A stretch of 64,000 nucleotides of DNA from Patescibacteria group bacterium (GCA_041659045.1 JBAZZB010000004.1:28129-92128), one strand, 5' to 3'; positions 22,721 to 64,000 are shown, counted from the stretch's first letter. Made by a program: numbers and translations. Notes: a model not told the origin generated them from the sequence alone.

Positions 22721-22779
22721 TTTTCTGCAAATGTGCTTGCGCGCCTTTCCACCGCTACCCTCCACAAGGAGCCGCTCTG

Positions 22780-23199
22780 ATGCCACAGATCTTCCTCGGC
22801 ATTTTCCTGATCCTGCTTATCGTCGTGCCCGTGTTCGTTTACGACCGCCGTCGCGCTGTCGAGGATGGGCGACGTCATCTGCTCGACATGCTCCGTCGCA
22901 CACCCGATGACAGTCTGCACCTTGTTCGCTTCGGGAAGTTCAGGGCCAACGACCGCATCAGTATGGTGCTCCTCGGCTTCTTCAAGAAGTCGTTCCATCA
23001 CTACCATCTGCGTATCGAGACGACTGGCGTGAAGAAGCGTTATCGTCTCCAACACTCGCTTGATTGGCCTGGTCCGGGATGGCTGACGAAAGAGCATCAA
23101 GGACAGATTGGCGACGAGGTCTGGACGGCCACGCTCGCGCTCATCTCCGCCGCGACCGATCTCCACAACCTCGTACGTGACGAACAGGCCGCTGCCTGA
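22780..23199 (+). CDS. small bitopic hypothetical protein G
   Basis: 139 aa from ATG 22780, RBS aaggag, N-terminal TM. Confidence 0.55.
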   Translation: MPQIFLGIFLILLIVVPVFVYDRRRAVEDGRRHLLDMLRRTPDDSLHLVRFGKFRANDRISMVLLGFFKKSFHHYHLRIETTGVKKRYRLQHSLDWPGPGWLTKEHQGQIGDEVWTATLALISAATDLHNLVRDEQAAA

Positions 23200-45956: not shown

Positions 45957-46556
45957 ATGCCCGCTGATCTGCCGATCACGGACGAAAGGCCGGGGGAGCA
46001 CCGCGCTGGGGCGTGGGTTGTTTTGGTTATGGGCCTGATAGGTCTCGGTCTCGGAGCCTACCAATGGCGCGCTTCATTCCGCGCCGCGTTCGTCAGTCAG
46101 GCCGGAACGTTCAAAACTCCGGACCAAGTCGAACAGGAGGAGATCGAAGCGATGAAAACAAAAGATACCGACAACGACACGCTCAGTGACTTTGAAGAAA
46201 CCTACGTTTACAAAACGAGCCCGTACCTCAACGACTCCGACTCCGACGAAACGGATGATGCGACGGAGCTGAAGGCGGGGGAGGACCCAAATTGTCCCAA
46301 AGGAAAAAGTTGCATCGAATCTGGGCTGGCCGCGACATCGTCGTCGACGGGTGCGGTGGCTAGCTCAACTGCCCAGATTGAAGAAGATGCGATGAAACAG
46401 CTCCTTAATCCGACGCCTGCGCAGATTCGCGCGCTCCTCATCCAAAACGGTGTGAAGGAAAGCGATCTCTCGGGTATCGATGACACGACGTTGCTGACGC
46501 TCTATCAGCAGTCGCTCCAGGAAGTCCAAGCCAATGCCGACAAGAACTCCAACTAA
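45957..46556 (+). CDS. bitopic acidic hypothetical protein (first gene of T4SS-like operon)
   Basis: 199 aa, one TM, then a D/E/S/T-rich ectodomain. It overlaps the giant gene's start. Confidence 0.5.
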   Translation: MPADLPITDERPGEHRAGAWVVLVMGLIGLGLGAYQWRASFRAAFVSQAGTFKTPDQVEQEEIEAMKTKDTDNDTLSDFEETYVYKTSPYLNDSDSDETDDATELKAGEDPNCPKGKSCIESGLAATSSSTGAVASSTAQIEEDAMKQLLNPTPAQIRALLIQNGVKESDLSGIDDTTLLTLYQQSLQEVQANADKNSN

Positions 46557-49500
46557 GATCCTCGTCGCCGCCCTGATCGCGTTCTTTATTGTTGCCAAAC
46601 CAGCGGCAGCGCAGTTTGGAATCCCTCAAGTCGTGGTTGATCCTGGAGCAAATGCGCAACTCGGTATTGCGAATGCGAACTTGGCCGCGCAAACTGCACA
46701 AGGGACGGTACAAACGACTGATACCGTCAAGCAGTCGGCATGGCAGGTGCTCAAAACGTCGTTGACGAACACTGCGGCGCTCGCGCTTTTGAACGGTGCC
46801 AATTATTTTGCGCAAAAAGTAGCATACGACGCCGCTGTCTACCTTGCTTCCGGCGGCAGTGGTCAAAAACCATTCTTCACGACAGAAGGGCTTGGTAATT
46901 ATCTTCAAAACACCGCTGCGGACGCGGCTGGCGAAGTGCTTGGCACCCTGACGTCGGATCCTGCGAGCTTTGGAAAATACGGCATCAATCTTTGTGTTCC
47001 AAAAACACCGCAGCTTGCGTTGAATTTCAAAATCGGATTCTTGAACGGTTTGCCGGGTATTCTCGGTACAGGTGGCCCAACGCCACCGACGCCGAAGTGT
47101 TCATGGGACAGCATCTCTACCAACTGGGATTCGTTTGTCAGCCAGGATTCCTCAGAGGTTTTGGATCAGGTCGGTATCATGTTCACTCCCGGCGAAAGCT
47201 CTCTTTCGGCCGCGATCGAACTCAACAACATCGCGCTCCAGCAAATCGCCGAGAAGAACCTCGAATCGTACGGCGATTATTTGGCGAACAAAGGTTTTAA
47301 ACCGGTACGCGACTTCATTTCGCGCGACATCAAAACGCCTGCCTCGACCATTGAGAAACAGCTCGATATTTCGATGGAGCAGGGCTGGAAACAAGGAGAC
47401 CGCACCGTGGCTATTACGGGCAGTGCTTTCAATAATGCCGCGTTCGGCATTCTCCCTGCGGCGCTCCAGACCTTCGCAGGCGCGCTCTCGGAACAACTCC
47501 TGAAGAAAGTCTTCACGCAAGGCTTGATTTCGGTCAGCGACCTCATGGGCAGCAACGGCGATCAGGCGCTCAGCTTCGGTGCTTCGCCGCCCGCGGGTGG
47601 ACGCGCTTCCGCAGAGCTCGCCAACGCCTCTCTTTTGACACCGAAGATTTTGTCAATCACCAATTATAACGAATTGACGGATTTTGCGACCTGTCCGACG
47701 AGCGGCAATACGACCAATCATTGCGTGATCGATACGCAGTTCTATAACGCCGTCAGCCGTGCCGATCAAGGACAAGCCATGACCGTTCGCCAGGCCGTTC
47801 AGCAAGGATTCCTGAACCGCGGTTGGCAGTTGCTTCCGCTTTCGCACCGCAAAAACCTTGAGACAACCTGTTACGGAGAAGCGTTCTGCTATTCCAATCT
47901 CGTGAAGTTGCGCCTCGCGCGCGTTCTGCCGATCGGTTGGGAAATGGCGGCCAACTCGCCGTTCAATGATGTGAATCGTCCCGTCACGCTTGGCGAAGCG
48001 ATGGATCGTTTTGAAGACTGCCCGCGCGACCCCTCCGGAGGCGTCGACGAGACGAGATTGCCCGACCCGCTGCACCCGTGGTGCCACATGGTCGATCCGG
48101 AATGGGTCTTGAAGTACCCGTCCGCCATTTGCCGCCAGCAGGCACCCGGCCCGACGCTCCTCTCGCCGCAGTCCTCAGCACGTGCTGAAAGCTGTGTGGA
48201 CGTGACCTCGTGCATTTCTCAAGATGCGTCTGGAAACTGCGTGGGCGGCTACGGCTACTGCGTCCGTGAAAAGGGTGTGTGGAAGCTTGATGCCGACGCT
48301 TGCCCCGCCCAGTACTCAAGCTGCACTGTCTACAACCGCGCTGATGGCGCGACATTTGCGTTCCTTGCGAACACGCTCGATGCGGGTCCGTGCAATTTAC
48401 AAAATGCCGGTTGCCGCCAGTACAGCCTCTCCACGAACTCAGTACCAAACGGAAGTTTTGAAGATCTTTTGGCTGGTCAGCCTCGCGACTGGACGCTTTC
48501 CGCCGGTGCGCGCCTTCATCGTTCCGGCACGCTTTCTTCGCATGGTGTAAATGCGGTCGGAGTCCTTGCTGGCAATGGTGCGAGTGTGCGGATCCCGTCC
48601 TTGATGCCTGGGAAGAGCTATGCCATTTCCGCAGGCGTCGTCCAAGAACTCGAAGGAACTTCAGCCGTTGGAACGATCCGTCTTACGTTCTTCAAAGCTG
48701 ATGGTACCCCGGTTGATACGTCGACACTCTCAACGACGTGTGAAAGCGAAAACCTCGGTCGCGCTGTTTCGCTTGATATCGCAACGACGGTTCTTGGATA
48801 TCAGAATGGCTCTTGCACGGTTACGACCCCTCCCGGTACGAATTCGGCGCTCTTGGAAATCAGTTCAAGTGCTCCTGCTGCGGGTAACCGCACGTGGTTC
48901 GATGCGCTCGGTGTCTTCGGGGAAGGATTCTCCACTTCACCCTATGACGGCATCTTCTTGAACAGCCAAGCAACGACCTGTTCCTCAGACGATGCTGGTT
49001 GCACCGAATTTGTCCGTGTTTCGACGGGGACGTTGAACTTGGTGCGCAACTCAGGCTTCGAAGAAGCAAGCACTGCGACGAACCGCGCCTTGTTCTGGAA
49101 CCTGGATCCGGCACGGTACAACCACGACACGTTCGTTGGTTCGCAAGGTGCTTCGTCCGTCACGCTCTCGCCGACGCCGGTGAGCCAGGATGTCTACGGT
49201 GTGCTCTCTGACGCTTCGTATAGCTTCTCAGTCGCCACGCGTCACTCCGGAACGGGCGCGGCACCTAACGCGCTTGCGACGATTCAGTTGTACGACACGA
49301 GTCCGACGCCTCAGGCCGTTTCACCGGTTACGGTCGATGGCTGCACGCTTTCTGGCTCATCCATGCAGCTCAATTTGGCTGTGGGGAACGAGTTCCAGAA
49401 CACGACGTGCTCGTTTACGACACCTTCCGATATCGGATACGCCAGAATCATTCTCACATCCAACTCTCCGACCGAGGACGTGTTGGCAGACGCCGTGCAA

Positions 49501-52500
49501 CTTGAACTCTCCGTTGGTGCGACCGCCTATCATGACGGCTATGCAAGTTCGGCGCAGCACGTGAACTTGAAGAAGGCTCCTGTCGGGCTCGACTGCTCTG
49601 GCGATGATCGCTCCGCTGAGTGCAGCAAGTACGCCCCTTCCTGCCGTCGCGACGAAGTCGGTTGTAACGCATACAACCCGATTGATGGCGGTACGGCTAT
49701 TACGGCAGTCACCACATCAAACGATGCTTGCCCTGTCGCCTGCGCTGGCTACGACACGTTCCGCCAGGAGCCGACGCAGTTCAACGAGTCGCGTTTCCCG
49801 CTCTTCTTGATTCCGAAGAGTGCGGAAGTTTGCACGGCCAACGAAGCAGGCTGCACCGAATTCACCAATATTGAAAAGCTCGCGCAAGGCGGCGAGTCGC
49901 GCGAATATTTCACGTACCTGCGCCTCTGCACCAAGCCGGACGATCAATCCGGTACCTACTATACGTGGGAAGGCAACGATGTGCGCGGATACCAACTCCG
50001 TTCGTGGTCGTTGCGCCGCAGCAACAGCACGTCGGTCATCAACGACTCCGACCCGACGGGTGGAACAGCGCCGTGTACGAAGCTCGCGTATGACGCAGCG
50101 GGCCAACCGCGCTGCGCCGATGACGCAGCAAGCGTTTTGGCTGCTTCCTGTACCAGAACGGACATCTCCTACAATCCCGACTGCCGCGAATTCTACGATG
50201 TTGACGGTAATATTCACTACCGCCTCTACTCGAAGACGATTCTCTCGACGGACAGCTGCCGCGAATACCGCATCACCAAGAGTTCGGAGACGGAATGCCG
50301 CGACCATGGCGGTCGCTGGCAGAACAACGAATGCCGCTACCTCGCCTACGCGCCGGAGAGCGCCTCTTGCGCTGCGACTGCTAAGGACTGCCGCGCGTAT
50401 TCCGGCAATGCTTCTCGTAACGTGCGTGTGATCGTCACGAACACCTTTGAAGTCGGAACGACGGAAGGTTGGACGGCGGCTCCAGGCGGCGGAAGCACGT
50501 CCGATGTCGTGAACAGTAACGAAGCTGTTTCGGCTGGCGGTCACTCGCTGAAAGCGACACGTGCGAACGTGACGAGCAATGTTTCTGGTCAGATCCGCAA
50601 AGGAAAATCATACCTCCTCACGTTCTGGGCTAAGGGCACAGGTGATTTGTCGGCACACTTGAGCCAAGCCGGCGATGAAAGCTTTACGTTTAATCGCACG
50701 ACCTCCACAGAATCACCAGTCAACCTGACGACGGAATGGCGCCCGTACCAGATTGGTCCGGTCGAAGCGATTAATGCTCCAGAAACAACTGAACAATTGA
50801 TCTTCGAGCGCCTCGGTGGGGGAGCGCCACTCTTCTTCCTTGATAACATCGAGCTTCGTGAGATCACTGACGATGTCTACTTGATTGAAGAATCGTGGGA
50901 GACACCGCTTGTCTGCGATCAGACGCCTTCTGGCGCTTCTTCACCGCAGTACATGCTCGGCTGCCGCGCCTACAAAGACCGAAGCAACACACAGTCGACG
51001 TTCAAGTCGTTTGAAAAACTGTGCCGCCCTGAAGCGGTCGGTTGCGAAGCTCTGTATGACACGAGGAACTCGGCGTCTCCGTTCGCGCAGACCTTCCGAG
51101 CCGTCTGTACGATCGCGGCCTCCTGTGTGCCTGGCTCTGGTTTGACGTGTCCGTGCGCTGTTGATGGCGCGACGGTCTGTCAGGTAACGAGAGGGGAGAC
51201 GAGCTGCCGGTATGACATCAACGACGATGTTCCGGCTTCACGCGTGAGCCCTACTGGCGACACCGTTCGCGTTTCTCCTGACGGCGTTGAGTATCTCGTG
51301 AACGACCTTCGCTATCGCTGCGATTCCGATGCGATCGGTTGTACCGCGATGGGCGACAAGCATATGAACAGCGCGCGCGACGCCGTTGATACTTGGAGCA
51401 CGGTGTATCTCCGCAACGTGCCGTCCGACTACGCGCGCACCCTCTGCAACGCGCCGGAACAATACTGCCAGGCCTACACGAAAAAAGCCGACGCATCGCC
51501 GGTCTTCTTCAAGGATCCTGAAGCGCGCATTTGTGAATTCCGTGATGGTGCCGCTGCGGGAAGCCGTGGTTGGTTCAAGAAGGGGACAAGCGATCCGTGC
51601 GATCCGACCTACCTTGAATCGGGTGACCGCTACGGCATCTGGAAGAACTCCGACGCGGCCTACGACGGCTGGGCGGGTGTCTGTTCTCCGCAGCACGACA
51701 TGTGTAAAGAGTTCATTGATCCGGTCGCAACGTCGTCCTCCTTCCCGAACGGAACGCCGTATTACGCGATTTTCAACGATCGCCTGGACACCAAGACGTG
51801 TCAGAACCGCGTGAGCTTGAATGAGTCGCCGTCGGGCGCGAACGCCGCTTCTGCCTGCGTCCTCTTCTGGCAGACAGATAACCTGACCAAGATCTACAGC
51901 GCTACGGCGACGTACGCCCTCTCCGATTCTCAGCGCGGTGCGCTCGTCGCTCCGCAACCAGGCGGTGCACTCAGTGATTCCAACACCATCATCCGCGTGC
52001 AACGTGATCGCCAGTGCGGCGAATGGCTTGATTGCCGCTCGCGCCGAACCGTCTTCAATGCTTCGACGGGTCAGTATCAAAACGTCTGCACGTCCTACAG
52101 CTTGTGCGCCGAATTCGAGCGTATCGGCAATACGACGCGCTGTGTCCGTTATGTCGAAAGCAGCTATTCGGGCACGACGCTCACGCCGGATATTTACTCG
52201 GCGCGCACGGTCGGATCGAAAGGTATGGATTACTCCGGTCTCGCGATTCCGAACCGCTATCCGGTGGACGAACTCGTGACCGTGAACGTTGGAGCGAGCG
52301 TTACGAAGCCGGATCTGCGACTCGTCTACGTCGGAGGCACGTGTAACGGTGCTTACGGAACATTCTGCGGTCCGGCTGATGACCAAGGCAGTTGCTTGGG
52401 TCCGGCTGGCAGCAGATTGTGTGTGCACCCGATCGACGGAGGTCGCCTCATTACATCAGAAGCACAGCTCAACCAACCGCAAATCGTCTCCGGTTATCCC

Positions 52501-55401: not shown

Positions 55402-55405
55402 TTCT

Positions 55406-58288
55406 ATGAATTTTTTCCAGCGCCTTCACGTCAAACTTAACCTCCTCTTCTCCGGGAAGAGGAGGATTTGGCGTCTGATGGCGCTCGGTGCATTGGCTGT
55501 CGTTGGCTTCGCGCTCCCTGGTGTTGTACAAGCGGCTGGCTGTGGCTTGAGCAGTCCTGAAATCTGTATCGCGACGATCTTCGTCTGGATCTTCCAGAGA
55601 CTCACGGCGCTCATGGGGTTCATTTTGATCATGGAGGTGGACGCGTTGATCCGTGTGGCGGGGTACTTCAACTTCGTCTCACCGGGTCCGACGGCTGTCC
55701 GTATTGGTTGGGTCGTGACGCGCGACTTGGCGAACATGTTCTTCATCGTGTTCCTCATGATCATCGCCTTCAGCACGGTCATCGGGTACTCCAAGTACCA
55801 CTATGAGCAGACGTTGAAGAAACTTCTGATCATGGCGGTTATCATCAACTTTTCGAAGACGATCGTTGGTTTGATGATCGATATCAGCCAGGTGGTGATG
55901 CTCTCGTTCGTGAACGGTTTCCGTGCTGCGGCGGCGGGTAACTTCATGAACGCATTCCAAATCAATAAGCTGCTCGCGCTTGGCGACGGTCCAGCCGAGT
56001 ACAATTTCGGTTTGGTGCTCGCCATGATGCTGGCCTTCATTTTGGCCGCCATCGCCGCGTGCGTCGTGCTCGTCATGCTCGTCATGCTCGTTTTCCGCGT
56101 CATCATGCTGTGGGTACTGATCATTCTCTCTCCCATCGCGTTTTTGACAGCGGCATTTCCTTTGAGCGGCGGCTACTACGCGCAATGGTGGGGCGAACTC
56201 AAAAAATACCTTATCGGCGGTCCTGTTGTCGCTTTCTTCTTGTGGTTGGCGCTGGCAACGGCGCAACAAACGGCGGGAAACCTTTCGTCTCCGCAAGAAG
56301 GCTGGGGCGTGCAATCGGCGGCCTCTGCTCAGGAAGTCGAAGGCCAAGCCACAAAGTCGCAAATCCCAAGCGAAGCCGGACGCACCGACACGATTCTCAG
56401 CATGGTGATTGTTTGCTGCATCATGTTCGCGGGTTTGAAGTTCGCGGCTGATCCGGCCATCAGCGGCTTGGCATCAGGCTTCGCTGGTAAGGTGAAAGGA
56501 AAAGCTGTTTCCGCATTGCGCGCTGGTACCGTTGGCGTTGCCGGGTATGGTTTGAAGCGCGCCGCGGAGCCTGTGATGACGACCGTCGGCAAGGGATTGG
56601 CGCGCGTGCCGCTGGTTGGTGCCGCGGGCCGCTACATGGCGCTGAAGGGAGAGGGGATGAAGAAGGCGCGTCTTGCTGGGCGTGAGAAGATGTTTGGCGG
56701 CGCGGAAGATATGGCGCGTCTCAGCCCCGGAGCCTTTACGAGGAAACTTGGCGGCTTGAAAGACCCTAGGGAGATCGACAAGTACATGAAGATCGCGAGC
56801 GCGAATCCTGATTTGATGGCGAGTCTCGCCCCAAAGGAATCAATTAATCCGCTGACAGGCAAGCGAGAGATAAAGGGTGTTGGCCGTGATGTGATGAAGC
56901 AATGGGCTTCGAGCGACAGCCCAGCTGCCGCGAAGTTCATGATGGGCGACGCGCGTTCGAAAGCTTGGTTGAAGAATGATCCGGAGCTTCTCAAGCAGAC
57001 GTATGACGGTCTGAAAGATACGGCCGAGAAGGATCCGAATCGCAAAAAAGATCTTAGTGAGTTCGAGCAGAAAATGGCTGTTCCGTTGCAGAAGAACGGC
57101 ATGTTCGGAAATATCCCGTCTGTTGTCAAAGAAAAACTCGCAGGACTTGTTCCGAAGATGTCCGCTGATGACTTTAAGGATGTCGCGGGCTCTGACATGG
57201 GCACGTTCATGGAGCACATGACGGGCAAACAGTTCCGGGAAATGGCCGTGGACGGAAAGACCGACCAGCAACTCGGCATGTCTTCTGAGCTGGCCAAAAT
57301 GCCGAAGGACAAGGCCCTCGAATTCATGCGTGAACGCGGTTTGAACGCCACCGAAGTTCCTGATTCTTGGTATTCCAACGAGCACGTTGCGGATTACGTC
57401 TTGGCCTCCACGTCCGGCAAGGCTGAAGCACGCGGCAAAATCATGGCAGATGAGACGCGTGCGAAAGCGCTGCAAGATGCTGCGAAGCGCGGACTGTCCG
57501 GCCCGAACGCACCGACTGACGATAACAAGCGCGCGGCCGCGGCTGTGCAGGCGATGTCGGTTGGGGCTCTTAAGGTCAGCGACCTGGATGTTGGTGATGC
57601 CAGCGGCAAGACGCTTCGAGACGTGCTTAGCCGTAGTGGAGACACGGCAGCGATCGCTCGCAATATCGACAAGGACGATCCTGATCAGTTGGCTGTCGGA
57701 CGCGAAATCTTCAAGACGATCATGGGTCAAGATCCGACTCGTGCTCGCAACTTGAGCAAGAATGATCTCTATAACAAGCTCCTGCCTTCAAAAGCAGAAA
57801 TTGACGCCGCTGTCACGGCCGCCGCTGCCGCGCAAGCGGCTGGAGTAGCCCAAGTCAAAACGACTGAAAGGGAAGTTGAACGTAGGGGATTGGCGGGAGA
57901 TGCGGTGAACGTGAAGGCCGACCTTTCTGGACAACTGAAGGCGTTGCAAGACGCGATTCATGAGGATCGCCTGGCTGGACGTCCTACGGCTACAAAAGAA
58001 CAGCAGGCAGATCAGGTCGCGAAAGCGATGCAGGACCTCACGCGCGCGACAGAACAGCGTGCGAACGCTGAACAAGAATTGGCGCAGGAGATGCAGAGGC
58101 TTTCCGTTGCCAGCTCTACTGGCGGTGATGCGGCAGCGATTCAAAGCGCCGTCGACCGCTTGAAGAAAGGTATTCAAGACCTGGATTCAACGTTGGCCAA
58201 GCAGGTCGCGACAATTAAAGGTATTAAGTTCGATGAAGGTGGTGGCGGCGGTCGCAAGAACCGCGGCGGCGGGGGAGGACGCGTATGA
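55406..58288 (+). CDS. VirB6/TrbL-like polytopic membrane protein with roughly 550-aa hydrophilic coiled-coil C-terminal extension
   Basis: Signal-like N-terminus, then 6 or more TM helices with the Gly/Ala-rich VirB6/TrbL pattern (MLAFILAAIAACVVLVMLVML, SPIAFLTAAFPL). Long Ala/Lys/Glu-rich tail ending GGGGGRKNRGGGGGRV. Confidence 0.6.
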   Translation: MNFFQRLHVKLNLLFSGKRRIWRLMALGALAVVGFALPGVVQAAGCGLSSPEICIATIFVWIFQRLTALMGFILIMEVDALIRVAGYFNFVSPGPTAVRIGWVVTRDLANMFFIVFLMIIAFSTVIGYSKYHYEQTLKKLLIMAVIINFSKTIVGLMIDISQVVMLSFVNGFRAAAAGNFMNAFQINKLLALGDGPAEYNFGLVLAMMLAFILAAIAACVVLVMLVMLVFRVIMLWVLIILSPIAFLTAAFPLSGGYYAQWWGELKKYLIGGPVVAFFLWLALATAQQTAGNLSSPQEGWGVQSAASAQEVEGQATKSQIPSEAGRTDTILSMVIVCCIMFAGLKFAADPAISGLASGFAGKVKGKAVSALRAGTVGVAGYGLKRAAEPVMTTVGKGLARVPLVGAAGRYMALKGEGMKKARLAGREKMFGGAEDMARLSPGAFTRKLGGLKDPREIDKYMKIASANPDLMASLAPKESINPLTGKREIKGVGRDVMKQWASSDSPAAAKFMMGDARSKAWLKNDPELLKQTYDGLKDTAEKDPNRKKDLSEFEQKMAVPLQKNGMFGNIPSVVKEKLAGLVPKMSADDFKDVAGSDMGTFMEHMTGKQFREMAVDGKTDQQLGMSSELAKMPKDKALEFMRERGLNATEVPDSWYSNEHVADYVLASTSGKAEARGKIMADETRAKALQDAAKRGLSGPNAPTDDNKRAAAAVQAMSVGALKVSDLDVGDASGKTLRDVLSRSGDTAAIARNIDKDDPDQLAVGREIFKTIMGQDPTRARNLSKNDLYNKLLPSKAEIDAAVTAAAAAQAAGVAQVKTTEREVERRGLAGDAVNVKADLSGQLKALQDAIHEDRLAGRPTATKEQQADQVAKAMQDLTRATEQRANAEQELAQEMQRLSVASSTGGDAAAIQSAVDRLKKGIQDLDSTLAKQVATIKGIKFDEGGGGGRKNRGGGGGRV

Positions 58289-60036
58289 TCGCCACTGACG
58301 TCCTGCAGCGGAAAATCGATGCGCTGCCGGAGCCGGTACTCGACTACCTGTATTCGGAGCGCGCTGGCGAACTCAACTTGCAGGTGATTGAGAAGCATCA
58401 GCTGACGGAGAAGCAGGAGGAGACGTATTTTCAGATCCTGCGCGAGCTGTTCGTCAAAGATTTGCCGCTTGAACGCTTGATCATCGAGCTCAAAGAGCGG
58501 CTCGAGCTTGATGATACGAAAGCGAAAGCACTCGCGATTGATATCGCTGGGTTTCGCTTGTTGCCGCTCGACAAGTGGCTTGCGGATATCAGCACGTTTT
58601 TGCGAGCGCTTGGTGCTGACCCGAAAACATTCCCAAATCTGCGCGTTGCGATCGCGCGCCGCACGGTTGATGAGGCGGCTGCGGAGATCGCGACGTCCGT
58701 GGCCTCGACGCCGGACGACCACTTGCACAACAGATTAGAGAACGTCGTTGAATCGGTGTTGGCTGGTGTACGCACCGAAGCGCAAGCGGCGGATGTGTTG
58801 ACGCGCCCGGAAAAAATTGGCGGCGTCGGTCTTGAACCGAAAGAAGCCGAGCGCGTTCTTGAAGAAATTCGCGAAGAATCGCGCAGTGTCATTTTGGATC
58901 AAAGTGTTCCGGAAGTTGAAAAAAAAGAAGAAGAAGCGCCAGTCGCCGCGGTTTCCGCTCCCGTCAAAGCGAAAGACGAAGGTCTTACGCTGACGCCAGA
59001 GGACGCAGTTGAACTCGCTCAATTCAAAAAAACCGCACCATCAAAAGATATTGATACGATGGTGCAGGAGATTTATTTTGCCTCCGGCCTCGCGACAGAA
59101 GACGAAGCGATGGCGAAACGCGTCAAAACGGTTATTGGCAACCGCTTGCGCGATGTGCGCGATCAAATGGAAACGCTCGAGATCATGACCCAGCCGAAGG
59201 AGCTGGGTGGCTTGAGCATGAGTCAAGACTCAGCGCGCGCTTTGCTCAACACGATTCAATCGCGGTTGCGAAAAACGGATGCGGTCGCGCAGGCCAAGGT
59301 GCAGACGGAAAAAGCGAAATGGGTTGAAACCGAGCGCGTGCAAAAGGCGCAGAACGAAACGCAAACCAACGTCGATCAAAAGACGGAGCTTGAGCGTTTG
59401 TATCAGAGCATTGTCACGAAATCGAAGAAGGCGACGGCTAACGCGCCTACGCAGCCAACTGTCGTGGCGCCGGTACTCGATACCAAATCTGCCGCTCCGG
59501 CTAATCTTCCGATTTCTGCAGCGAGCCCTGTTCCACCCGACTTCAGAGCACCCGCTTCTCCGCCTGAGCCGCCAGCTCCCGTGGTCGCGCGTCCGCCGCT
59601 TCCACCCCCCGCCACAATAGTGAAACCGACCCCGGCTGTCCCAACCGCCCCGACTTTTAGTGCGACGAGCTTTGCTCAGCGACCCAAGCTTGAAGACGTT
59701 AAAGCTGCGCCAAAGTTGACGGGGCCTGTCGAAGAGCTGCGTGCGATCACAATCGTCGATTTCCGTCGCCTTTCCAAGGATCCGAAGGAAGCGTGCATGA
59801 AGATCAAGGATAAAATTGATCTTCTGGGCGATCAGTCCTATACCCGCCGTAGCGAAGGGATTTCCGCGTGGACCACGTCGGAAGTAACGCGTACGTACCT
59901 TGAATTGATGCGCGAAAGCTTAAACGGCACGCCTCTCCCCGAGGCAATTTCAGCCCGAGAAGCCGCTAAAAAACCGGTGCTGACGGCTGATGAGTTCCGA
60001 GCCGTGGCCGAGCTGAGCCGTCAGATGCGGTATTAA
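58285..60036 (+). CDS. soluble Pro-rich hypothetical protein of T4SS-like operon
   Basis: 583 aa, no TM. Central PPDFRAPASPPEPPAPVVARPPLPPP. It overlaps the upstream stop (ATGA). Confidence 0.55.
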   Translation: MIATDVLQRKIDALPEPVLDYLYSERAGELNLQVIEKHQLTEKQEETYFQILRELFVKDLPLERLIIELKERLELDDTKAKALAIDIAGFRLLPLDKWLADISTFLRALGADPKTFPNLRVAIARRTVDEAAAEIATSVASTPDDHLHNRLENVVESVLAGVRTEAQAADVLTRPEKIGGVGLEPKEAERVLEEIREESRSVILDQSVPEVEKKEEEAPVAAVSAPVKAKDEGLTLTPEDAVELAQFKKTAPSKDIDTMVQEIYFASGLATEDEAMAKRVKTVIGNRLRDVRDQMETLEIMTQPKELGGLSMSQDSARALLNTIQSRLRKTDAVAQAKVQTEKAKWVETERVQKAQNETQTNVDQKTELERLYQSIVTKSKKATANAPTQPTVVAPVLDTKSAAPANLPISAASPVPPDFRAPASPPEPPAPVVARPPLPPPATIVKPTPAVPTAPTFSATSFAQRPKLEDVKAAPKLTGPVEELRAITIVDFRRLSKDPKEACMKIKDKIDLLGDQSYTRRSEGISAWTTSEVTRTYLELMRESLNGTPLPEAISAREAAKKPVLTADEFRAVAELSRQMRY

Positions 60037-60072
60037 GGGGCGGTGCTAGGCAAACTGTGGTAAAATAAAGCC

Positions 60073-60501
60073 ATGTCCCAGTTCGTCGTTCCGCAATTCA
60101 TCGACGTCGAGGATAAGATCCTCGGCCCTATCACGACGCGCCAATTCGCCATCTTGATGGTCGATGGCCTCGTGATGTTTATCTTGTACAAGCTGCTCAG
60201 CTTGCCGTTCGCAATCTTGTTTGATGTGTTGCTGCTGACGTCGGGTATTGTCTTGGCCTTCGTACGCATTAACGGTCAGCCGTTCCACTATTTCCTGCTG
60301 AACGTCTTTCAAACGTGGAAGCGCCCTCATGTGCGCGTGTGGAACAAGGAAATGAGCGACGCGGAAATTATCGCGTTGTCCAAAGTCGAATTGCCGCCCC
60401 CACCCGTCGCCAAGCCGTATAAGGAAGCGCTGACGACGTCGCGTCTTTCCGAATTGGCCCTGATCGTGAACACGGGAGGCGTCTACAAACCCGAGGATTG
60501 A
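60073..60501 (+). CDS. PrgI-family (VirB3-like) small membrane protein
   Basis: MSQFVVPQFIDVEDKILGPITTRQFAILMVDGLVMFILY matches the PrgI/VirB3 N-terminal motif. Two TM helices. Confidence 0.65.
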   Translation: MSQFVVPQFIDVEDKILGPITTRQFAILMVDGLVMFILYKLLSLPFAILFDVLLLTSGIVLAFVRINGQPFHYFLLNVFQTWKRPHVRVWNKEMSDAEIIALSKVELPPPPVAKPYKEALTTSRLSELALIVNTGGVYKPED

Positions 60502-60520
60502 CCGTCTTCCAGGAGGATCT

Positions 60521-61225
60521 ATGGCGCAGAAACAAGAACAACTGATGCAGAGTAAAAAACTCGCGGGTGGCAAGCCAGCCAACTCCACCCAGCGGTTTTT
60601 GGACGTCGCCGAAATCCGCGAAGACGTCGTCGTCATGAAGGACGGCACGATGCGCGTCGTGCTTCTCGTTTCAAGCCTGAACTTCTCTTTGAAATCAGAA
60701 GACGAACAGGAGGCGATTATTCAGGGATACATTTCGTTCCTGAATTCGCTCGACGCGCCGATCCAAATTCAAATCCAATCGCGCAAACTGAACGTCGACG
60801 ACTATTTGAACCGACTCAAGGAGCAGGAGAAGACACAAACCAACGAATTGCTGCGCTCCCAGATCAACGACTACCGACAGTTCGTCAAAGAGCTGGTCGA
60901 GCTCGGCGAGATCATGCAAAAAAAGTTTTTCGTGATCGTGCCGTACAATCCGGCGTCTTCGAAGCGCAAGGGGTTCTTCTCTCGCATGTCGGAAGTCCTG
61001 ACGCCGCTCGTTTCGGCGCGTTTGCGCGAAGAGCAGTTCCGCCAGCGCAAGAAGGACGTCATGGTGAAGGTCGATTCAGTCCGGGCCGGCCTCAACTCGA
61101 TGGGGCTGACCAGCGTCATGCTTGATACGCAAGGGCTGATCGAGCTGTACTACACCGCCTACAATCCGCAATCGATGGAGACGCAGAAGCTCGAAAAAAT
61201 GGACGCGTTACGCGTCGAAGCCTGA
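60521..61225 (+). CDS. VirB4-type ATPase, N-terminal domain (CagE_TrbE_VirB-like), terminated by in-frame TGA
   Basis: TQRFLDVAEIREDVVVMKDGTMRVVLLVSSLNFSLKSEDEQEAIIQGYISFL matches the conserved N-terminus of Gram-positive-type VirB4 (PrgJ/TcpF-like). Same reading frame as the next ORF. Confidence 0.65.
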   Translation: MAQKQEQLMQSKKLAGGKPANSTQRFLDVAEIREDVVVMKDGTMRVVLLVSSLNFSLKSEDEQEAIIQGYISFLNSLDAPIQIQIQSRKLNVDDYLNRLKEQEKTQTNELLRSQINDYRQFVKELVELGEIMQKKFFVIVPYNPASSKRKGFFSRMSEVLTPLVSARLREEQFRQRKKDVMVKVDSVRAGLNSMGLTSVMLDTQGLIELYYTAYNPQSMETQKLEKMDALRVEA

Positions 61226-61228
61226 CCT

Positions 61229-63154
61229 ATGGCCTTCAATCCCACCACGGCCACGCGTGAAGCTGCTGCTCCGAAAGAGGAGAAGCAGAAAATGTCGGCT
61301 GAAGAAAAAAAACGCCTCGCGCAGGAAGAGCGCATCAAGCTTGAAGAGGAGCGCATCTACCGCAAGGGTGTCGTCACGCTGCGCGACTTGATCGCGCCGG
61401 CGGCCTTTGAGGTCAAATCAAACCTGGTGCGCTTGGGCGATCTCTACGCGCGCACGGTCTTCGTCGTCACCTATCCGAGATATCTTTCACTTGGCTGGTT
61501 CACGCCGATCATCAACTTTTCGGCAACGATGGACGTCGGCATGTTCTTCTATCCCGTCCAGCCGGAAATCATTTTGAAACAATTGAAGAACAAGGTCGGT
61601 ATTTTGGAGGCGCAAATTTTGGGTGACGCTGAAAAAGGCGCCGCGCGCGATCCGCTTCGTGAAACGGCGCTGCGCGACATCGAAAAACTGCGCGACGACC
61701 TGACGCAGGGGATCGAGCATTTTTTCCAATTCGCGCTGTACGTCACGGTGTTCGCGCCTTCGGAAAAGGAACTCGATGATCTGACCAACCAGGTTGAGGG
61801 CATGTTCGGTTCGAAGCTGATCTACACCAAGCGCGTGCTCTACCAGTCGGAGCAGGGTTTCAACTCGACGCTGCCGTCCGGCAATGACGAGCTCATGATC
61901 ACCTTCAACATGAACACGAGCCCGATCGCTTCGGGTTTCCCGTTCGTGTCCGCCGACCTGACATCCGACAACGGCATTCTTTACGGCATCAACCGCCACA
62001 ACAACAGCCTGATTCTCTTCGATCGTTTTTCGCTGCAAAACGCCAACGCTGTCGTTTTCGCAACGTCCGGTGCTGGTAAAAGCTACACCGTGAAGCTTGA
62101 AGTGTTGCGTTCGCTCATGATCGGCACCGAGGTCATCATCATCGACCCGGAAATGGAATATAAGCACCTCTCCGACGCGGTCGGCGGTACGTATATCAAC
62201 ATTTCGCTGGCTTCCGAATCGAAGCTCAACATTTTCGATCTACCGCGCCCGATGGGGGAGGAAGTACGCTCCGAAGACATCATCCGCTCCGCCGTCATTA
62301 CGGTGAAAGGCCTCATGCGCATCATGTTCGGAAGCGTTACGACGTCCGAAGACTCGATCATCGACCGCGCTCTGCTCGAAACGTACGCCAAGAAAGATAT
62401 TGTTCCCGGTGTCGACCTCGCGACGATCGAGCCGCCGATTCTTTCCGACTTCCAACAGGTGCTCGAGGGTATCACTGGTACGGAAGATTTGCAGATCAAG
62501 CTTCGCAAATACACCGAAGGCACCTTCTCCGGACTCCTCAACTCGCCGACGACGATCGAGATGAAGAACAAGCTCGTGGTCTTCAGCGTGCGCGATCTTG
62601 AGGACGAACTGCGCCCACTCGGCGTCTACACCATCGTCAACTACATCTGGAACGTCGTCCGCTCGGAACGCAAAAAGCGTATTCTTGTGATCGATGAAGC
62701 ATGGTGGCTCATGCAAAACGACGACTCGGCGAAGTTCATTTTCGCCCTGGTCAAGCGCTGCCGAAAATACTTCCTCGGTGTCACAACGATCACACAGGAC
62801 GTCAACGACTTCTTGCGCTCGCCCTATGGTCAAGCCATCGTCACCAACTCCGCGCTCCAGGTGCTCCTCAAGCAGTCTCCAGCCTCAATCGATCTCGTTC
62901 AAAAGACATTCTTGCTGACAGAAGGCGAGAAGTACCTGCTGCTTGAAGCGGGCGTCGGTGAAGGTATCTTCTTTGCTGGGTCGAGACACGCCGCCATCAA
63001 AGTGGTCGCCTCCTACTCAGAAGATCAGATCATCACGTCTGACCCGCGGCAATTGCTCGAAATCGAGAACGCCAAGAAAGAACTCGATGAGCAACTGCTC
63101 CAGGCCTCCGAGAATTCTGGGACGACCGCGAATCCTGCTCAGCAACCCGCATAA
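61229..63154 (+). CDS. VirB4-type ATPase, central and C-terminal ATPase domain
   Basis: YPRYLSLGWFTPIIN, Walker A FATSGAGKSYTV, Walker B ILVIDEAWWLM. ATG lies 1 codon after the in-frame TGA of the previous ORF. Confidence 0.8.
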   Translation: MAFNPTTATREAAAPKEEKQKMSAEEKKRLAQEERIKLEEERIYRKGVVTLRDLIAPAAFEVKSNLVRLGDLYARTVFVVTYPRYLSLGWFTPIINFSATMDVGMFFYPVQPEIILKQLKNKVGILEAQILGDAEKGAARDPLRETALRDIEKLRDDLTQGIEHFFQFALYVTVFAPSEKELDDLTNQVEGMFGSKLIYTKRVLYQSEQGFNSTLPSGNDELMITFNMNTSPIASGFPFVSADLTSDNGILYGINRHNNSLILFDRFSLQNANAVVFATSGAGKSYTVKLEVLRSLMIGTEVIIIDPEMEYKHLSDAVGGTYINISLASESKLNIFDLPRPMGEEVRSEDIIRSAVITVKGLMRIMFGSVTTSEDSIIDRALLETYAKKDIVPGVDLATIEPPILSDFQQVLEGITGTEDLQIKLRKYTEGTFSGLLNSPTTIEMKNKLVVFSVRDLEDELRPLGVYTIVNYIWNVVRSERKKRILVIDEAWWLMQNDDSAKFIFALVKRCRKYFLGVTTITQDVNDFLRSPYGQAIVTNSALQVLLKQSPASIDLVQKTFLLTEGEKYLLLEAGVGEGIFFAGSRHAAIKVVASYSEDQIITSDPRQLLEIENAKKELDEQLLQASENSGTTANPAQQPA

Positions 63155-63159
63155 CGCCT

Positions 63160-63762
63160 ATGACCCCACGCCGCCGCGCCATTCTGATCATCACGCTCGC
63201 CGTGCTCCTGCTCGGCGTGATTATCGTTGCCGTTATTCTCGTGACGCGCGCTCTTCCGAAAAAAACAACGCCGATTCCCGTTGGGCAAGATACGAGCGTG
63301 CCGACACCGGAGCAGGAAGCGGCAGCGTCAATCATTAAAAATCCTCTGGTTCCCGCCGTGACGCAGCCTGTCGGCCGAACGGCTGCTGCGCAGATGGGCG
63401 AACTGTTTGCCGAACGCTATGGCAGCTATTCGAATCAGGGCGATTTCCAGAACTTGCGCGACCTCTTGCCCGTCATGACCGCCAAGTATCGTTTGCAGAC
63501 GGAAACCTCGCTCGCCGCCGCCAAGCCGCAGCAGGGACAGACGTTCGAAGGTGTGACGAGCGTGAAAATTTCCAGCGAAGTGCGCACCTATAATGAAGCA
63601 GGTGGAACCGCGGTTGTGGCCGTGACACTTCAGCAGGAAAAAGTTTCCGGCACGTCAACCGTCGTCGGTTACCGTACGCTCCGCATGGAGTTGAAGAAAG
63701 TCGGCGAAGACTGGCGTGTTGACTCCTCGCGCTGGGAAAACGAATTGACACCCGCAAGCTGA
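63160..63762 (+). CDS. bitopic hypothetical protein (possible VirB8-like periplasmic component)
   Basis: 200 aa, N-terminal TM, then a roughly 165-aa soluble domain. Position and topology resemble VirB8/TcpC-like proteins, but no motif was recognised. Confidence 0.45.
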   Translation: MTPRRRAILIITLAVLLLGVIIVAVILVTRALPKKTTPIPVGQDTSVPTPEQEAAASIIKNPLVPAVTQPVGRTAAAQMGELFAERYGSYSNQGDFQNLRDLLPVMTAKYRLQTETSLAAAKPQQGQTFEGVTSVKISSEVRTYNEAGGTAVVAVTLQQEKVSGTSTVVGYRTLRMELKKVGEDWRVDSSRWENELTPAS

Positions 63763-63770
63763 ATCCCGTA

Positions 63771-63800
63771 GGACGCGCCCGTATGATCGGGCGCGTTTTT
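63771..63800 (+). terminator. Rho-independent terminator (cgcgcccgtatgatcgggcgcg + T5)
   Basis: 8-bp GC stem and a T-run at the end of the T4SS-like operon. Confidence 0.65.
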
Positions 63801-64000
63801 GATTTTATTTTTCCTCTTGAATGCATCGCTTGCGGCGCGTCGGGTTCGCATTGTTGCGAAAGCTGCTTGTCCTCCGTGCCGATGTTGCCAAGATTTTGGA
63901 AAGAACCGGAGCTACGCGCCTCGGCGGCTTTTGCCTACGGGCATCCACTTGTACGTCGCTTGTTGCATGATCTGAAATTCGAACAATGGTCGTGTGCCGA
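63783..64000 (+). CDS. comF: ComF(C)-family competence protein, N-terminal part (continues beyond window end)
   Basis: In the frame starting at ATG 63783: ...FPLECIACGASGSHCCESCLSSVP...AAFAYGHPLVRRLLHDLKFEQ. The double CxxC zinc finger and LKF motif match ComFC/amidophosphoribosyltransferase-like competence proteins. Confidence 0.55.
   Translation, partial: MIGRVFDFIFPLECIACGASGSHCCESCLSSVPMLPRFWKEPELRASAAFAYGHPLVRRLLHDLKFEQWSCA

What the first reader, a model, noticed from the sequence alone, without database searches (positions are those of the whole stretch)
45957..63762. A 17.8-kb co-directional operon encoding a minimal T4SS-like apparatus (VirB4, VirB6-like, PrgI/VirB3-like) together with a 2955-aa CBM-bearing surface protein, with no relaxase or coupling protein in view
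Nine tightly packed or overlapping ORFs lie on one strand. They encode a bitopic acidic protein, a giant secreted Cys-rich protein, a TrbL/VirB6-like channel protein with a roughly 550-aa coiled-coil tail, a Pro-rich 583-aa protein, PrgI/VirB3, VirB4 (N- and C-terminal parts) and a bitopic VirB8-like candidate. There is no VirD4, relaxase, VirB2 pilin or VirB11 in the window. The neighbouring gene is ComF(C). The arrangement looks like the poorly characterised T4SS-like modules of small-genome (CPR-like) bacteria proposed for DNA uptake or host-cell attachment, not a conjugative plasmid system. The pairing with a 9-kb adhesin-like gene is unusual and may define a new attachment or secretion machine.
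Basis: partly seen in the sequence, partly recalled or inferred. Interest (0 to 1): 0.85.

Follow-up and report, generated by a model that had tools for sequence, protein, structure and literature searches.

The report
Patescibacteria type IV secretion operon
This is the chromosomal type IV secretion system already described in tiny host-dependent Patescibacteria (class ABY1 layout), here fused to a conserved, uncharacterised giant surface-protein cassette whose link to the machine is a new but unproven lead.

Summary
The ORFs are real, but there are eight at 45957-63762, not nine. Five are T4SS parts:
- an extended VirB6/TrbL-like membrane protein;
- PrgI/VirB3;
- a free-standing VirB4 N-domain (TrsD);
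- a CD1110-type VirB4 ATPase;

No relaxase or coupling protein lies in the 64-kb window, or within 10 kb downstream in a 97%-identical relative. The context is housekeeping (GroEL, RF2, TsaC, KsgA upstream; ComF downstream).

This matches the Patescibacteria T4SS clade published in 2023 and 2025. Those papers already report TrsD, PrgI, VirB6, ABY1-restricted VirB8, missing relaxase, and comF/recG/radA and KsgA neighbours. The core is therefore known, and its function is still unknown.

Points I did not find in the papers I read:
- The 2955-aa protein belongs to a family of at least 770 clusters, mostly 2,500-3,900 aa. A TSP3-repeat bitopic partner almost always precedes it.
- That cassette lies upstream of the T4SS in 32 of 50 independently retrieved loci.
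- The 583-aa protein is an orphan family present in 72 of 78 ABY1 loci.
- comF is tightly coupled to the VirB8-like gene.

Linkage of the giant may reflect conserved synteny only. Interest is moderate.

The parts
45957..46556 (+). 199-aa bitopic acidic protein with bacterial TSP3-type (Ca-binding-like) repeats; conserved partner of the giant gene
   Evidence: It has one hydrophobic segment at aa 17-35 and 17% D+E. Motifs DTDNDTLSDFEE and DSDSDETDDATE are present. The family consensus hits Pfam TSP3_bac at 25.4 bits (cut-off 25). A homologue sits directly upstream of the giant in 35 of 37 metagenome loci.
46534..55401 (+). 2955-aa exported Cys-rich protein (CBM_4_9 domain; C-terminal PKD-like module with Cys-rich inserts); member of a large uncharacterised Patescibacteria family
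   Evidence: Pfam CBM_4_9 matches aa 1299-1405. The only hydrophobic segment is N-terminal, and there are 110 Cys. There is no LPXTG motif. The C-terminal motif VDWGD...H.Y.C...PKVQV.DNWGWCNG.C is conserved. The family has 770 representative clusters at E<=1e-3, nearly all 2,500-3,870 aa and collinear. Source names are only 'hypothetical protein'.
55406..58288 (+). Extended VirB6/TrbL-like polytopic membrane protein (960 aa from the ATG; 969 aa from GTG 55379) with a roughly 610-aa hydrophilic C-terminal tail
   Evidence: Seven hydrophobic segments lie in aa 24-348, followed by a K/A/D/E-rich tail. The window copy has no Pfam hit. However, 11 of 56 orthologues hit TrbL PF04610 (best E 9.8e-6). 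The family consensus scores 24.9 bits against a cut-off of 25.9, covering profile positions 7-181 of 215. The gene is present in 58 of 78 species loci.
58285..60036 (+). 583-aa soluble Pro-rich orphan protein; conserved ABY1 T4SS-locus component of unknown fold
   Evidence: It has no TM segment and no P-loop. There is no credible Pfam or PDB match for the protein, its 70-member family or the family consensus. It is present in 72 of 78 loci, mostly directly upstream of prgI. Conserved features are the motif RLxDVRxxxET..GGLGL (twice) and a C-terminal domain of about 110 aa.
60073..60501 (+). PrgI / VirB3-like small membrane protein
   Evidence: Pfam PrgI PF12666 matches at E 8.3e-10, 39.5 bits (cut-off 27). 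It has two hydrophobic segments. The family HMM hits annotated PrgI proteins of Firmicutes plasmids at E about 5e-6.
60521..61225 (+). TrsD-like protein: the free-standing N-terminal domain of VirB4
   Evidence: NCBIfam gives TrsD/TraD at E 3e-7 and VirB4 N-terminal regions. The family consensus hits TraC_F_IV at 7e-5. The family HMM aligns to aa 11-132 of a full-length 783-aa plasmid VirB4, and at E 6e-41 to a separate 274-aa gene in Pontibacillus. It is a separate gene in 69 of 69 loci.
61229..63154 (+). VirB4 ATPase (C-terminal two thirds, CD1110 / MPF_FATA type)
   Evidence: NCBIfam conju_CD1110 scores 350 bits (cut-off 325). Pfam P-loop_TraG matches at E 3e-28. Walker A is ATSGAGKS and Walker B is ILVIDE. 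There are more than 8,000 homologues; the best 120 are 72-100% identical, 531-676 aa (nearly all 600-676 aa; two are truncated, 531 and 601 aa), and those that carry a source name are mostly from Patescibacteria MAGs.
63160..63762 (+). VirB8-like bitopic protein (N-terminal TM helix plus extracytoplasmic NTF2-like domain)
63770..63799 (+). GC-rich 12-bp hairpin plus T-run that holds the comF start codon in its loop (possible terminator or translational control element)
   Evidence: The terminator scan finds it. Its non-coding 5' arm is invariant in relatives at 87-97% VirB4 identity. It is absent in more distant lineages.
63783..64000 (+). 5' part of comF (ComFC-type: zinc ribbon plus phosphoribosyltransferase-like), cut by the window end; tightly coupled to the VirB8-like gene across ABY1
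   Evidence: The sequence reads MIGRVFDFIFPLECIACG.... The full-length orthologue in L004 has Pribosyltran plus DZR_2 domains. The gene is at position +2 in 62 of 78 loci. The median gap to the VirB8-like gene is 3 nt.

Best explanation

**Shown:**
- The locus encodes a cytoplasmic-membrane translocon: an extended VirB6/TrbL-like channel protein, PrgI/VirB3, a VirB8-like bitopic protein, and a VirB4 ATPase with intact Walker motifs.
- The VirB4 N-domain is a separate polypeptide (TrsD).
- The locus also holds a conserved soluble 583-aa orphan protein.
- It lacks relaxase, coupling protein, VirB11 and a pilin gene.
- It sits between housekeeping genes (KsgA and ComF).
- In this lineage it is directly preceded by a conserved two-gene cassette: a TSP3-repeat bitopic protein and a roughly 3,000-aa Sec-exported Cys-rich CBM/PKD protein.

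**Inferred:**
- VirB4/TrsD energise assembly and transport through the VirB3-VirB6-VirB8 membrane complex across a single membrane.
- Without relaxase and T4CP, the machine does not do conjugative DNA export.
- Given translational-coupling-range spacing to comF and the nearby recG/radA in relatives, my favoured role is contact-dependent import of host material, most plausibly DNA or nucleic acid handed on to ComF-dependent processing (about 35-40%).
- Export of proteins to the host is the main alternative (about 30%).
- The giant protein and its partner would act as the surface contact or adhesion module, analogous to the adhesins encoded ahead of Gram-positive T4SS genes (about 40%).
For: **Component identities:**

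**Patescibacterial, highly conserved VirB4.** The best 120 of more than 8,000 homologues are 72-100% identical and 531-676 aa (nearly all 600-676 aa); those that carry a source name are mostly from CPR MAGs. The nearest plasmid homologues are at most 35% identical and of the CD1110 family.

**Conserved order across 78 species loci:** virB6-like, (variable ORFs), p583, prgI, trsD, virB4, virB8-like, comF.

**Housekeeping context:**
- GroEL-RF2-epimerase-KsgA is upstream in the window.
- A 75%-identical relative on a 744-kb contig has the same context.
- G+C is uniform at 0.54-0.59.

**No relaxase or T4CP.** None is found in the window or within 10 kb downstream in a 97% relative. A real conjugative plasmid module shows both adjacent.

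**comF coupling.** The median gap is 3 nt, and 41 of 55 gaps are 30 nt or less.

**Giant cassette.**
- The giant and B6-like genes are 5 nt apart in the window.
- A T4SS lies downstream in 32 of 50 loci retrieved through the giant's own C-terminal motif.

**Literature.** PMC12102498 describes this clade, TrsD/PrgI/VirB6, ABY1-restricted VirB8, absent relaxases, and comF/recG/radA and KsgA neighbours. PMC10633639 and PMC12857230 report essentiality in a Saccharibacterium.
Against: **No functional data exist for ABY1.**
- In Southlakia (Saccharimonadia) the T4SS is essential although a comEC deletion is viable. Its essential role there is therefore not ComEC-dependent transformation (PMC12857230; PMC11665869).
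- The paper finds VirD4-like genes elsewhere in most Patescibacteria genomes. A distant T4CP cannot be excluded for this genome.

**VirB6 assignment.** It is below Pfam's curated threshold, and the window copy itself has no hit. There is no PDB sequence match either.

**Giant linkage is incomplete.**
- 18 of 50 giant loci have no T4SS gene within 10 kb.
- In 23 of 52 loci with both, an opposite-strand ORF separates them.
- KsgA, surely unrelated in function, is just as syntenic.

**comF adjacency** could likewise be inherited gene order.
Confidence: 0.88

Rival explanations
1. A degenerate or integrated conjugative element (ICE remnant), with its relaxase and coupling protein lying outside the window or lost.
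For: VirB4 is of the CD1110 conjugative type. Its closest non-CPR relatives are on Firmicutes and Actinobacteria plasmids, most of them predicted conjugative.
Against: - The same housekeeping flanks (KsgA upstream, comF downstream) recur in dozens of species-level loci.
- G+C is uniform.
- No integrase, relaxase or T4CP is present in 64 kb or in 10 kb beyond comF in a 97% relative.
- VirB4 is 72-100% identical across the 120 best-scoring hits, most of them CPR/Patescibacteria MAGs where a source gives a name, which indicates strong purifying selection rather than decay.
- PMC12102498 shows a monophyletic, class-congruent clade with rare inter-class transfer.
Confidence: 0.03
2. A protein-effector translocator or pilus-building T4SS. 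It would deliver proteins into, or build a conduit to, the host cell. The comF adjacency and the giant gene would be neighbours by descent only.
For: - Effector delivery or an alternative capacity is the reading favoured for Saccharibacteria (PMC10633639; PMC11665869).
- T4SS_pilin-domain proteins lie within 6-10 kb of virB4 in relatives L001, L005 and L006.
- Ptl and Brucella VirB show that T4CP-less protein secretion exists (PMC12102498).
- Linkage of the giant is incomplete.
Against: - No pilin or effector candidate lies in the window operon.
- comF follows the VirB8-like gene with a median gap of 3 nt in 55 loci, and recG/radA recur nearby. This is hard to explain by chance alone, though synteny inertia could do it.
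Confidence: 0.3
3. The g199-giant cassette is an independent surface or adhesion module. It merely shares a conserved chromosomal neighbourhood downstream of ksgA with the T4SS, so the '17.8-kb operon' is two functional units.
For: - 18 of 50 giant loci have no T4SS gene within 10 kb.
- 23 of 52 loci with both genes have an opposite-strand ORF between them.
- Relative L006 has ksgA directly followed by virB6-like with no giant.
- ksgA itself is conserved next to both.
Against: - In the window and its relatives the giant's stop and the virB6-like start are 5 nt apart or overlap.
- 32 of 50 loci found through the giant alone carry the T4SS downstream.
- Gram-positive T4SS operons typically encode their adhesins just upstream of the channel genes (my own knowledge of pCF10 prgA-C; not tested here).
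Confidence: 0.5

Closest known systems
Patescibacteria-clade T4SS (Quinonero-Coronel et al. 2025, PMC12102498; Southlakia epibionticum SEML1_0006-0019, Wang et al. 2023, PMC10633639)
   Same: - MPF_FATA-type VirB4 with a separate TrsD, PrgI/VirB3, VirB6 and (in ABY1) VirB8.
- No relaxase, and no T4CP nearby.
- Chromosomal housekeeping context, with ksgA, comF and recG neighbours as reported for ABY1.
   Different: - No VirB2-like pilin array or VirB1-like hydrolase lies in the operon, unlike Saccharimonadia.
- The g199 plus roughly 3,000-aa giant cassette and the p583 family are not mentioned in that paper (term search). The paper states that no adhesins were detected.
Gram-positive conjugative MPF_FATA systems (pGO1/pSK41 Trs, pCF10 Prg/Pcf, C. 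difficile CTn CD1110 type)
   Same: - Monoderm architecture VirB3-VirB4-VirB6-VirB8 without an outer-membrane core.
- The TrsD + TrsE-like split of VirB4, as in the pGO1 subclass.
- VirB4 passes the CD1110 model cut-off.
   Different: - No relaxase, T4CP, accessory relaxosome proteins or peptidoglycan hydrolase is adjacent. Compare the plasmid module, which has MobC, relaxase, VirD4 and an SLT hydrolase.
- VirB4 identity to plasmid copies is at most 35%.
- The locus is not on a mobile element.
Helicobacter pylori ComB DNA-uptake T4SS and the archaeal Ced DNA-import system
   Same: T4CP-less and relaxase-less VirB4-based machines linked to DNA import. ComB works upstream of ComEC/ComF, and here comF is tightly coupled. 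NCBIfam gives weak partial hits of VirB4 to CedB and CedD.
   Different: ComB is a diderm system with VirB2/7/9/10, and Ced uses unrelated membrane partners. The CedB and CedD matches are far below their cut-offs. DNA import is not shown here, and it is not the essential function in Saccharibacteria.
Extended VirB6 proteins (e.g. Rickettsiales RvhB6), as summarised in PMC12857230
   Same: A polytopic N-terminal TrbL/VirB6-like core followed by a large C-proximal hydrophilic domain. Orthologue lengths range from 744 to about 1,900 aa.
   Different: No detectable sequence similarity in the tail. The role of such tails is unknown in any system.
T4SS-associated surface adhesins of Gram-positive plasmids (PrgB / aggregation substance)
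   Same: A large Sec-exported surface protein encoded immediately upstream of the channel genes. It carries glycan-binding-type domains (CBM_4_9).
   Different: There is no LPXTG sortase signal and no C-terminal anchor. No PrgB-type adhesin domain was detected. It is about twice as long, has 110 Cys, and is paired with a TSP3-repeat membrane protein.

Membership tests
Patescibacteria-clade T4SS (MPF_FATA-derived) | VirB4 ATPase of the MPF_FATA / CD1110 type with intact NTPase motifs | tested here: met
   NCBIfam conju_CD1110 scores 350 bits against a cut-off of 325. Pfam P-loop_TraG matches at E 3e-28. Walker A and B motifs are present.
Patescibacteria-clade T4SS (MPF_FATA-derived) | VirB4 belongs to the monophyletic Patescibacteria clade | tested here: inconclusive
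   No tree was built. As proxies, the best 120 homologues are 72-100% identical and, where a source gives a name, mostly from CPR MAGs, and the best plasmid homologues are at most 35% identical. This is strongly suggestive but is not a phylogeny.
Patescibacteria-clade T4SS (MPF_FATA-derived) | Separate TrsD (VirB4 N-domain) gene next to virB4 | tested here: met
   Supported. The genes are separate in 69 of 69 loci. They are in the same frame in 23 of 69, which is the chance rate, so the in-frame TGA here is coincidental.
Patescibacteria-clade T4SS (MPF_FATA-derived) | PrgI/VirB3 homologue next to virB4 | tested here: met
   Pfam PF12666 scores 39.5 bits against a cut-off of 27.
Patescibacteria-clade T4SS (MPF_FATA-derived) | VirB6/TrbL-like polytopic protein | tested here: inconclusive
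   The window protein has no hit. Eleven of 56 orthologues hit TrbL. The family consensus scores 24.9 bits against a cut-off of 25.9. There is no PDB sequence match. Topology and position fit.
Patescibacteria-clade T4SS (MPF_FATA-derived) | VirB8-like bitopic NTF2-fold protein (reported mainly in ABY1) | tested here: met
Patescibacteria-clade T4SS (MPF_FATA-derived) | No relaxase or coupling protein in the cluster; chromosomal housekeeping context with comF/recG (ABY1) | tested here: met
   Supported.
Conjugative MPF_FATA element (plasmid/ICE) | Relaxase (MOB) and type IV coupling protein associated with the MPF genes | tested here: not met
   None is found in the 64-kb window or in 10 kb downstream in a 97% relative. 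A reference plasmid module shows both adjacent. A distant T4CP elsewhere in the genome cannot be excluded.
Conjugative MPF_FATA element (plasmid/ICE) | Mobile-element context (integrase/att, compositional break, patchy distribution) | tested here: not met
   G+C is uniform. Housekeeping flanks are conserved across species. No integrase Pfam hit was found.
DNA-uptake T4SS (ComB-like / Ced-like) | Genetic coupling to the competence and recombination machinery | tested here: met
   comF is at position +2 in 62 of 78 loci with a median gap of 3 nt. recG and radA lie nearby in relatives.
DNA-uptake T4SS (ComB-like / Ced-like) | Demonstrated DNA import dependent on the system | not testable with these tools
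   This needs genetics in a cultivated strain. In Saccharibacteria the essential role is independent of ComEC (PMC12857230).
PrgB-type T4SS adhesin | Cell-wall anchor (LPXTG) and PrgB-like adhesin domains | tested here: not met
   There is no LPXTG motif and no C-terminal TM. The only Pfam hit is CBM_4_9. The comparison is therefore an analogy by position only.

The most novel reading that the evidence does not exclude
The TSP3-repeat bitopic protein and the roughly 3,000-aa Cys-rich CBM/PKD protein form the dedicated extracellular contact module of the ABY1 T4SS, and the 583-aa orphan is a further dedicated component. The contact module would be a giant adhesin or 'probe' that docks the secretion channel onto the host envelope. 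Together these would define a new architectural variant of monoderm T4SS. Coupled to ComF, it would import host DNA or nucleotides.
Probability: 0.3. Interest if true: 0.7.

Novelty: new member of a known kind. Interest (0 to 1): 0.4.

Why it matters

This locus adds no new kind of machine, but the comparative work gives three concrete handles for that open question:
- a very large, uniformly sized giant-protein family with a fixed membrane partner, physically fused to the T4SS operon in many ABY1 lineages;
- a near-universal soluble orphan, the p583 family, inside the ABY1 operon;
- tight virB8-like-to-comF coupling.

Each yields a testable prediction about contact, substrate recruitment and DNA handling. 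If the giant's linkage is only synteny, the finding is an ordinary instance of a published system.

Tried and rejected
**Searches and models that led nowhere**
No fold search was attempted on it.
The word filter probably saturated on low-complexity Gly runs. As a result, no MSA-based models could be made for p583 or VirB6-like.
- **Locus-derived alignments** are not accepted by the structure tool.
- **PDB profile searches** for VirB6-like and p583 found nothing meaningful.
- **NCBIfam** gave nothing for the giant, VirB6-like, p583 or PrgI.
- **ABY1 family HMMs** for VirB6-like, p583, VirB8-like, giant and g199 found no counterpart in two reference Firmicutes modules.
- **pCF10** could not be fetched by accession.

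**Ideas considered and rejected**
- **Pseudogenised or recoded VirB4** (in-frame TGA at 61223-61225). The split is present in 69 of 69 loci, and the same-frame fraction is at chance.
- **Alternative genetic code.** G+C is 57%, all ORFs close normally, and homologues have the same lengths.
- **Giant plus g199 as a recent insertion** in this lineage, my first impression. It was replaced by 'widespread cassette, sometimes absent'.
- **The two minus-strand ORFs upstream of virB6-like in some loci as pilins.** They are Der GTPase and LytR_cpsA_psr.
- **The comF hairpin as a general ABY1 feature.** It is lineage-restricted.

Full report
**1. Observation**

The region 45957-63762 holds eight + strand ORFs of 199, 2955, 969 (960 from the first ATG), 583, 142, 234, 641 and 200 aa. 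Junctions are overlaps or gaps of 40 nt or less.

The tightly packed co-directional string is longer than reported. RF2, an epimerase, TsaC and KsgA run straight into the 199-aa ORF with a 12-nt gap. comF starts 20 nt after the 200-aa ORF. A promoter-consensus scan finds fewer sites than in shuffles. 'Operon' is therefore an assumption, and its ends are unknown.

G+C is flat at 0.54-0.59 over the whole 64 kb.

**2. What the proteins are**

| ORF | Result |
|---|---|
| 641 aa | NCBIfam 'VirB4-like conjugal transfer ATPase, CD1110 family', 350 bits vs cut-off 325; Pfam P-loop_TraG E 3e-28; Walker A ATSGAGKS, Walker B ILVIDE |
| 234 aa | VirB4 N-terminal domain as a separate protein (details below) |
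| 142 aa | Pfam PrgI above cut-off; two-TM hairpin |
| 200 aa | VirB8-like (details below) |
| 969 aa | VirB6/TrbL-like at family level only (details below) |
| 583 aa | No TM, no P-loop, no credible match in Pfam, NCBIfam or PDB, as sequence, 70-member family or consensus |
| 2955 aa | Signal-like N-terminus, 110 Cys, one CBM_4_9 domain above cut-off, no LPXTG, no C-terminal anchor |
| 199 aa | One TM helix then an acidic region with two DxDxD...E motifs; family consensus passes Pfam TSP3_bac |

*The 234-aa ORF (TrsD).*
- It has weak TrsD/TraD and VirB4 N-region hits, and its family consensus hits TraC_F_IV.
- An HMM of the family aligns to residues 11-132 of a full-length 783-aa plasmid VirB4.
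- The HMM of the 641-aa family aligns to residues 193-755 of the same protein.

*The split VirB4.* The TGA between the two ORFs is in frame, which could suggest a pseudogene or recoding. Across 69 related loci the two genes are always separate, and they share a frame in 23 of 69, the chance rate. The split is therefore old and stable. All close homologues of the 641-aa protein are about 600-676 aa.

*The 200-aa ORF (VirB8-like).*
- It was modelled with a 56-sequence alignment at pLDDT 89.6. The model has a TM helix followed by an alpha+beta cone.
- PrgL, CagV, pIP501 TraM/TraH and OrfG follow.
- Foldseek and sequence profiles agree weakly.

*The 969-aa ORF (VirB6-like).*
- It has seven hydrophobic segments in its first 350 residues and a roughly 610-aa hydrophilic tail.
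- It has no Pfam hit itself.
- Eleven of 56 orthologues hit TrbL/VirB6 (best E 9.8e-6).
- The family consensus scores 24.9 bits against a cut-off of 25.9, over most of the profile.
- I treat VirB6 homology as likely but formally below threshold.

**3. Surroundings and relatives**

Every larger ORF in the other 46 kb is housekeeping or unannotated. These include tRNA synthetases, NusA, YidC, GroEL, RF2, copper ATPases and DsbA. None is a relaxase, T4CP, VirB11, integrase or pilin.

Neighbourhoods of VirB4 homologues show the following:
- In a 97% relative, comF, a GIY-YIG protein, a 1,241-aa LamG/PKD protein, recG and a HAD hydrolase fill the next 10 kb.
- A 75% relative on a 744-kb contig has GroEL-RF2-epimerase-KsgA directly followed by virB6-like-p583-prgI-trsD-virB4-virB8-like-comF, then recG.

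A scan of one genome per species gave 80 loci from Uhr-, Magasanik- and Falkowbacteria and unnamed Patescibacteria. In 78 non-redundant loci the family counts are:

| Family | Loci (of 78) |
|---|---|
| VirB4 | 78 |
| p583 | 72 |
| TrsD | 71 |
| PrgI | 67 |
| VirB8-like (always +1) | 70 |
| ComF-like (+2) | 62 |
| VirB6-like | 58 |

The VirB8-like-to-comF gap has a median of 3 nt. The closest plasmid VirB4s are at most 35% identical. A real clostridial module shows MobC, relaxase and VirD4 just upstream and an SLT hydrolase just downstream. None of these is present here.

**4. The giant cassette**

- **Upstream homologues.** tblastn showed homologues of the giant's regions 1800-2200 and 2600-2920 directly upstream of virB6-like in 21 of the species loci.
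- **C-terminal module.** It reads as a PKD-like domain split by Cys-rich inserts: VDWGD...H.Y.C...PKVQV.DNWGWCNG.C.
- **Independent retrieval.** I searched metagenome contigs using only that motif. Complete family members there are 2,538-3,394 aa.
- **Partner gene.** In 35 of 37 cases a homologue of the 199-aa protein precedes the giant. KsgA is often just before that.
- **Linkage.** Of 50 loci with at least 4 kb downstream, 32 carry virB6-like and, where the sequence reaches, p583-prgI-trsD-virB4. Eighteen have no T4SS gene within 10 kb, even with HMMs at E<=1.
- **Adjacency.** Where both genes are present, 23 of 52 are directly adjacent, 23 have an opposite-strand ORF of 146-429 aa between them (often with further ORFs), and 6 have a + strand ORF between them.
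- **Family size.** A full HMMER pass over 1.84 billion representatives finds 770 clusters (296 at E<=1e-30). Nearly all are 2,500-3,870 aa and collinear. Named members are all 'hypothetical protein [Patescibacteria group bacterium]' or CPR1.

The pairing is therefore recurrent and, in this lineage, physically tight. It is neither universal nor distinguishable from inherited gene order: KsgA is equally syntenic.

**5. Comparison with what is known**

Quinonero-Coronel et al. 2025 (PMC12102498) analysed 3,035 Patescibacteria genomes. They report:
- a monophyletic VirB4 clade nested in MPF_FATA;
- TrsD as the commonest partner, plus PrgI/VirB3 and VirB6;
- VirB8 hits almost only in class ABY1;
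- relaxases in only 103 genomes, and T4CP genes mostly far from virB4;
- KsgA among frequent neighbours;
- comF, recG and radA in the ABY1 loci.

Wang et al. 2023 (PMC10633639) showed that the homologous cluster is essential for epibiotic growth of a Saccharibacterium. Reviews call its role 'completely unknown' and note that essentiality is independent of ComEC (PMC11665869, PMC12857230).

The window is thus an ABY1-type member of a published system. A term search of that paper finds no mention of a giant, large or carbohydrate-binding protein, and it states that no adhesins were detected. Two literature searches found nothing on a giant protein linked to a CPR T4SS.

**6. Mechanism**

*Shown.* The gene set encodes a monoderm inner-membrane T4SS core with a competent ATPase. 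It lacks the DNA-processing and coupling parts, and it is stably chromosomal.

*Inferred.*
- VirB4/TrsD power transport through a VirB3-VirB6-VirB8 complex.
- The system is not conjugative.
- Because comF is at translational-coupling distance and recG/radA recur nearby, I favour contact-dependent import of host nucleic acid (about 35-40%) over protein export or a pilus conduit (about 30%).
- The Saccharibacteria data weigh against a purely ComEC-type route.
- The giant plus its TSP3 partner is best read as an exported surface module. This rests on CBM and PKD-like domains, many disulfides, and DsbA and DsbD-type genes in the window. I give about 40% that it serves the T4SS as its contact device.
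- The role of p583 is unknown. Its constancy and position suggest a cytoplasmic accessory to VirB4 or the VirB6 tail.

**7. Verdict**

Residual novelty lies in the accessory families and their linkage statistics. Interest is 0.4.

Noticed in passing
window 19205-23199 (+): Six consecutive small ORFs (171-204 aa), each with an N-terminal hydrophobic segment and no Pfam hit. They may be an array of paralogous membrane-anchored proteins.
   Followed up: no
window 63770-63799: A 12-bp GC-rich hairpin followed by a T-run, with the comF start codon (63783) in its loop. The non-coding 5' arm is invariant in relatives at 87-97% VirB4 identity while the flanking intergenic sequence varies. It is absent in more distant ABY1 loci. 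It may be a terminator or attenuator, or a translational gate on comF.
   Followed up: partly
window 61223-61228: An in-frame TGA and a single codon separate the TrsD-like and VirB4 ORFs. This looks like a recoding site. Across 69 loci, however, the two genes share a frame at exactly the chance rate, 23 of 69.
   Followed up: yes
window 6297-16228: A cluster of a DsbD_2/HMA/cupredoxin membrane protein, two copper P-type ATPases, a multicopper oxidase and a DsbA-like thioredoxin. It provides oxidative-folding and copper-handling capacity in a small genome that exports a 110-cysteine protein.
   Followed up: no
L169 (Pontibacillus sp. plasmid NZ_CP062975.1) 7486-17039: A Firmicutes cluster with a pilin-like gene, a 779-aa membrane protein, a PrgI-like gene, a separate TrsD-like gene (E 6e-41 to the ABY1 TrsD HMM), a 621-aa VirB4 (35% identical) and a 1,050-aa DD-endopeptidase. 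No relaxase is nearby. It is the closest non-CPR layout seen and is embedded next to flagellar genes.
   Followed up: partly
L001 18349-21763, L005 18465-21777, L006 16181-17641: In relatives, proteins of 446-656 aa carry a T4SS_pilin (PF18895) domain, some fused to Peptidase_M23 or VanY. They lie next to radA and DsbA, 6-10 kb downstream of virB4. They are possible pilin/hydrolase fusions. No equivalent was seen in the window or in the 10 kb downstream of its 97% relative.
   Followed up: no
L022, L028, L012, L024 (between virB6-like and prgI): In several species the p583 family occurs as two adjacent ORFs or has an extra paralogue. Unrelated genes, such as SAM synthetase and AdoHcy hydrolase in L024, can sit inside the T4SS gene string. 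The string is therefore not a strictly dedicated operon.
   Followed up: partly
window 55379-55406: The ORF finder starts the VirB6-like gene at GTG 55379, overlapping the giant's end. Relatives and spacing favour ATG 55406, 5 nt after the giant's stop, which gives 960 aa.
   Followed up: partly
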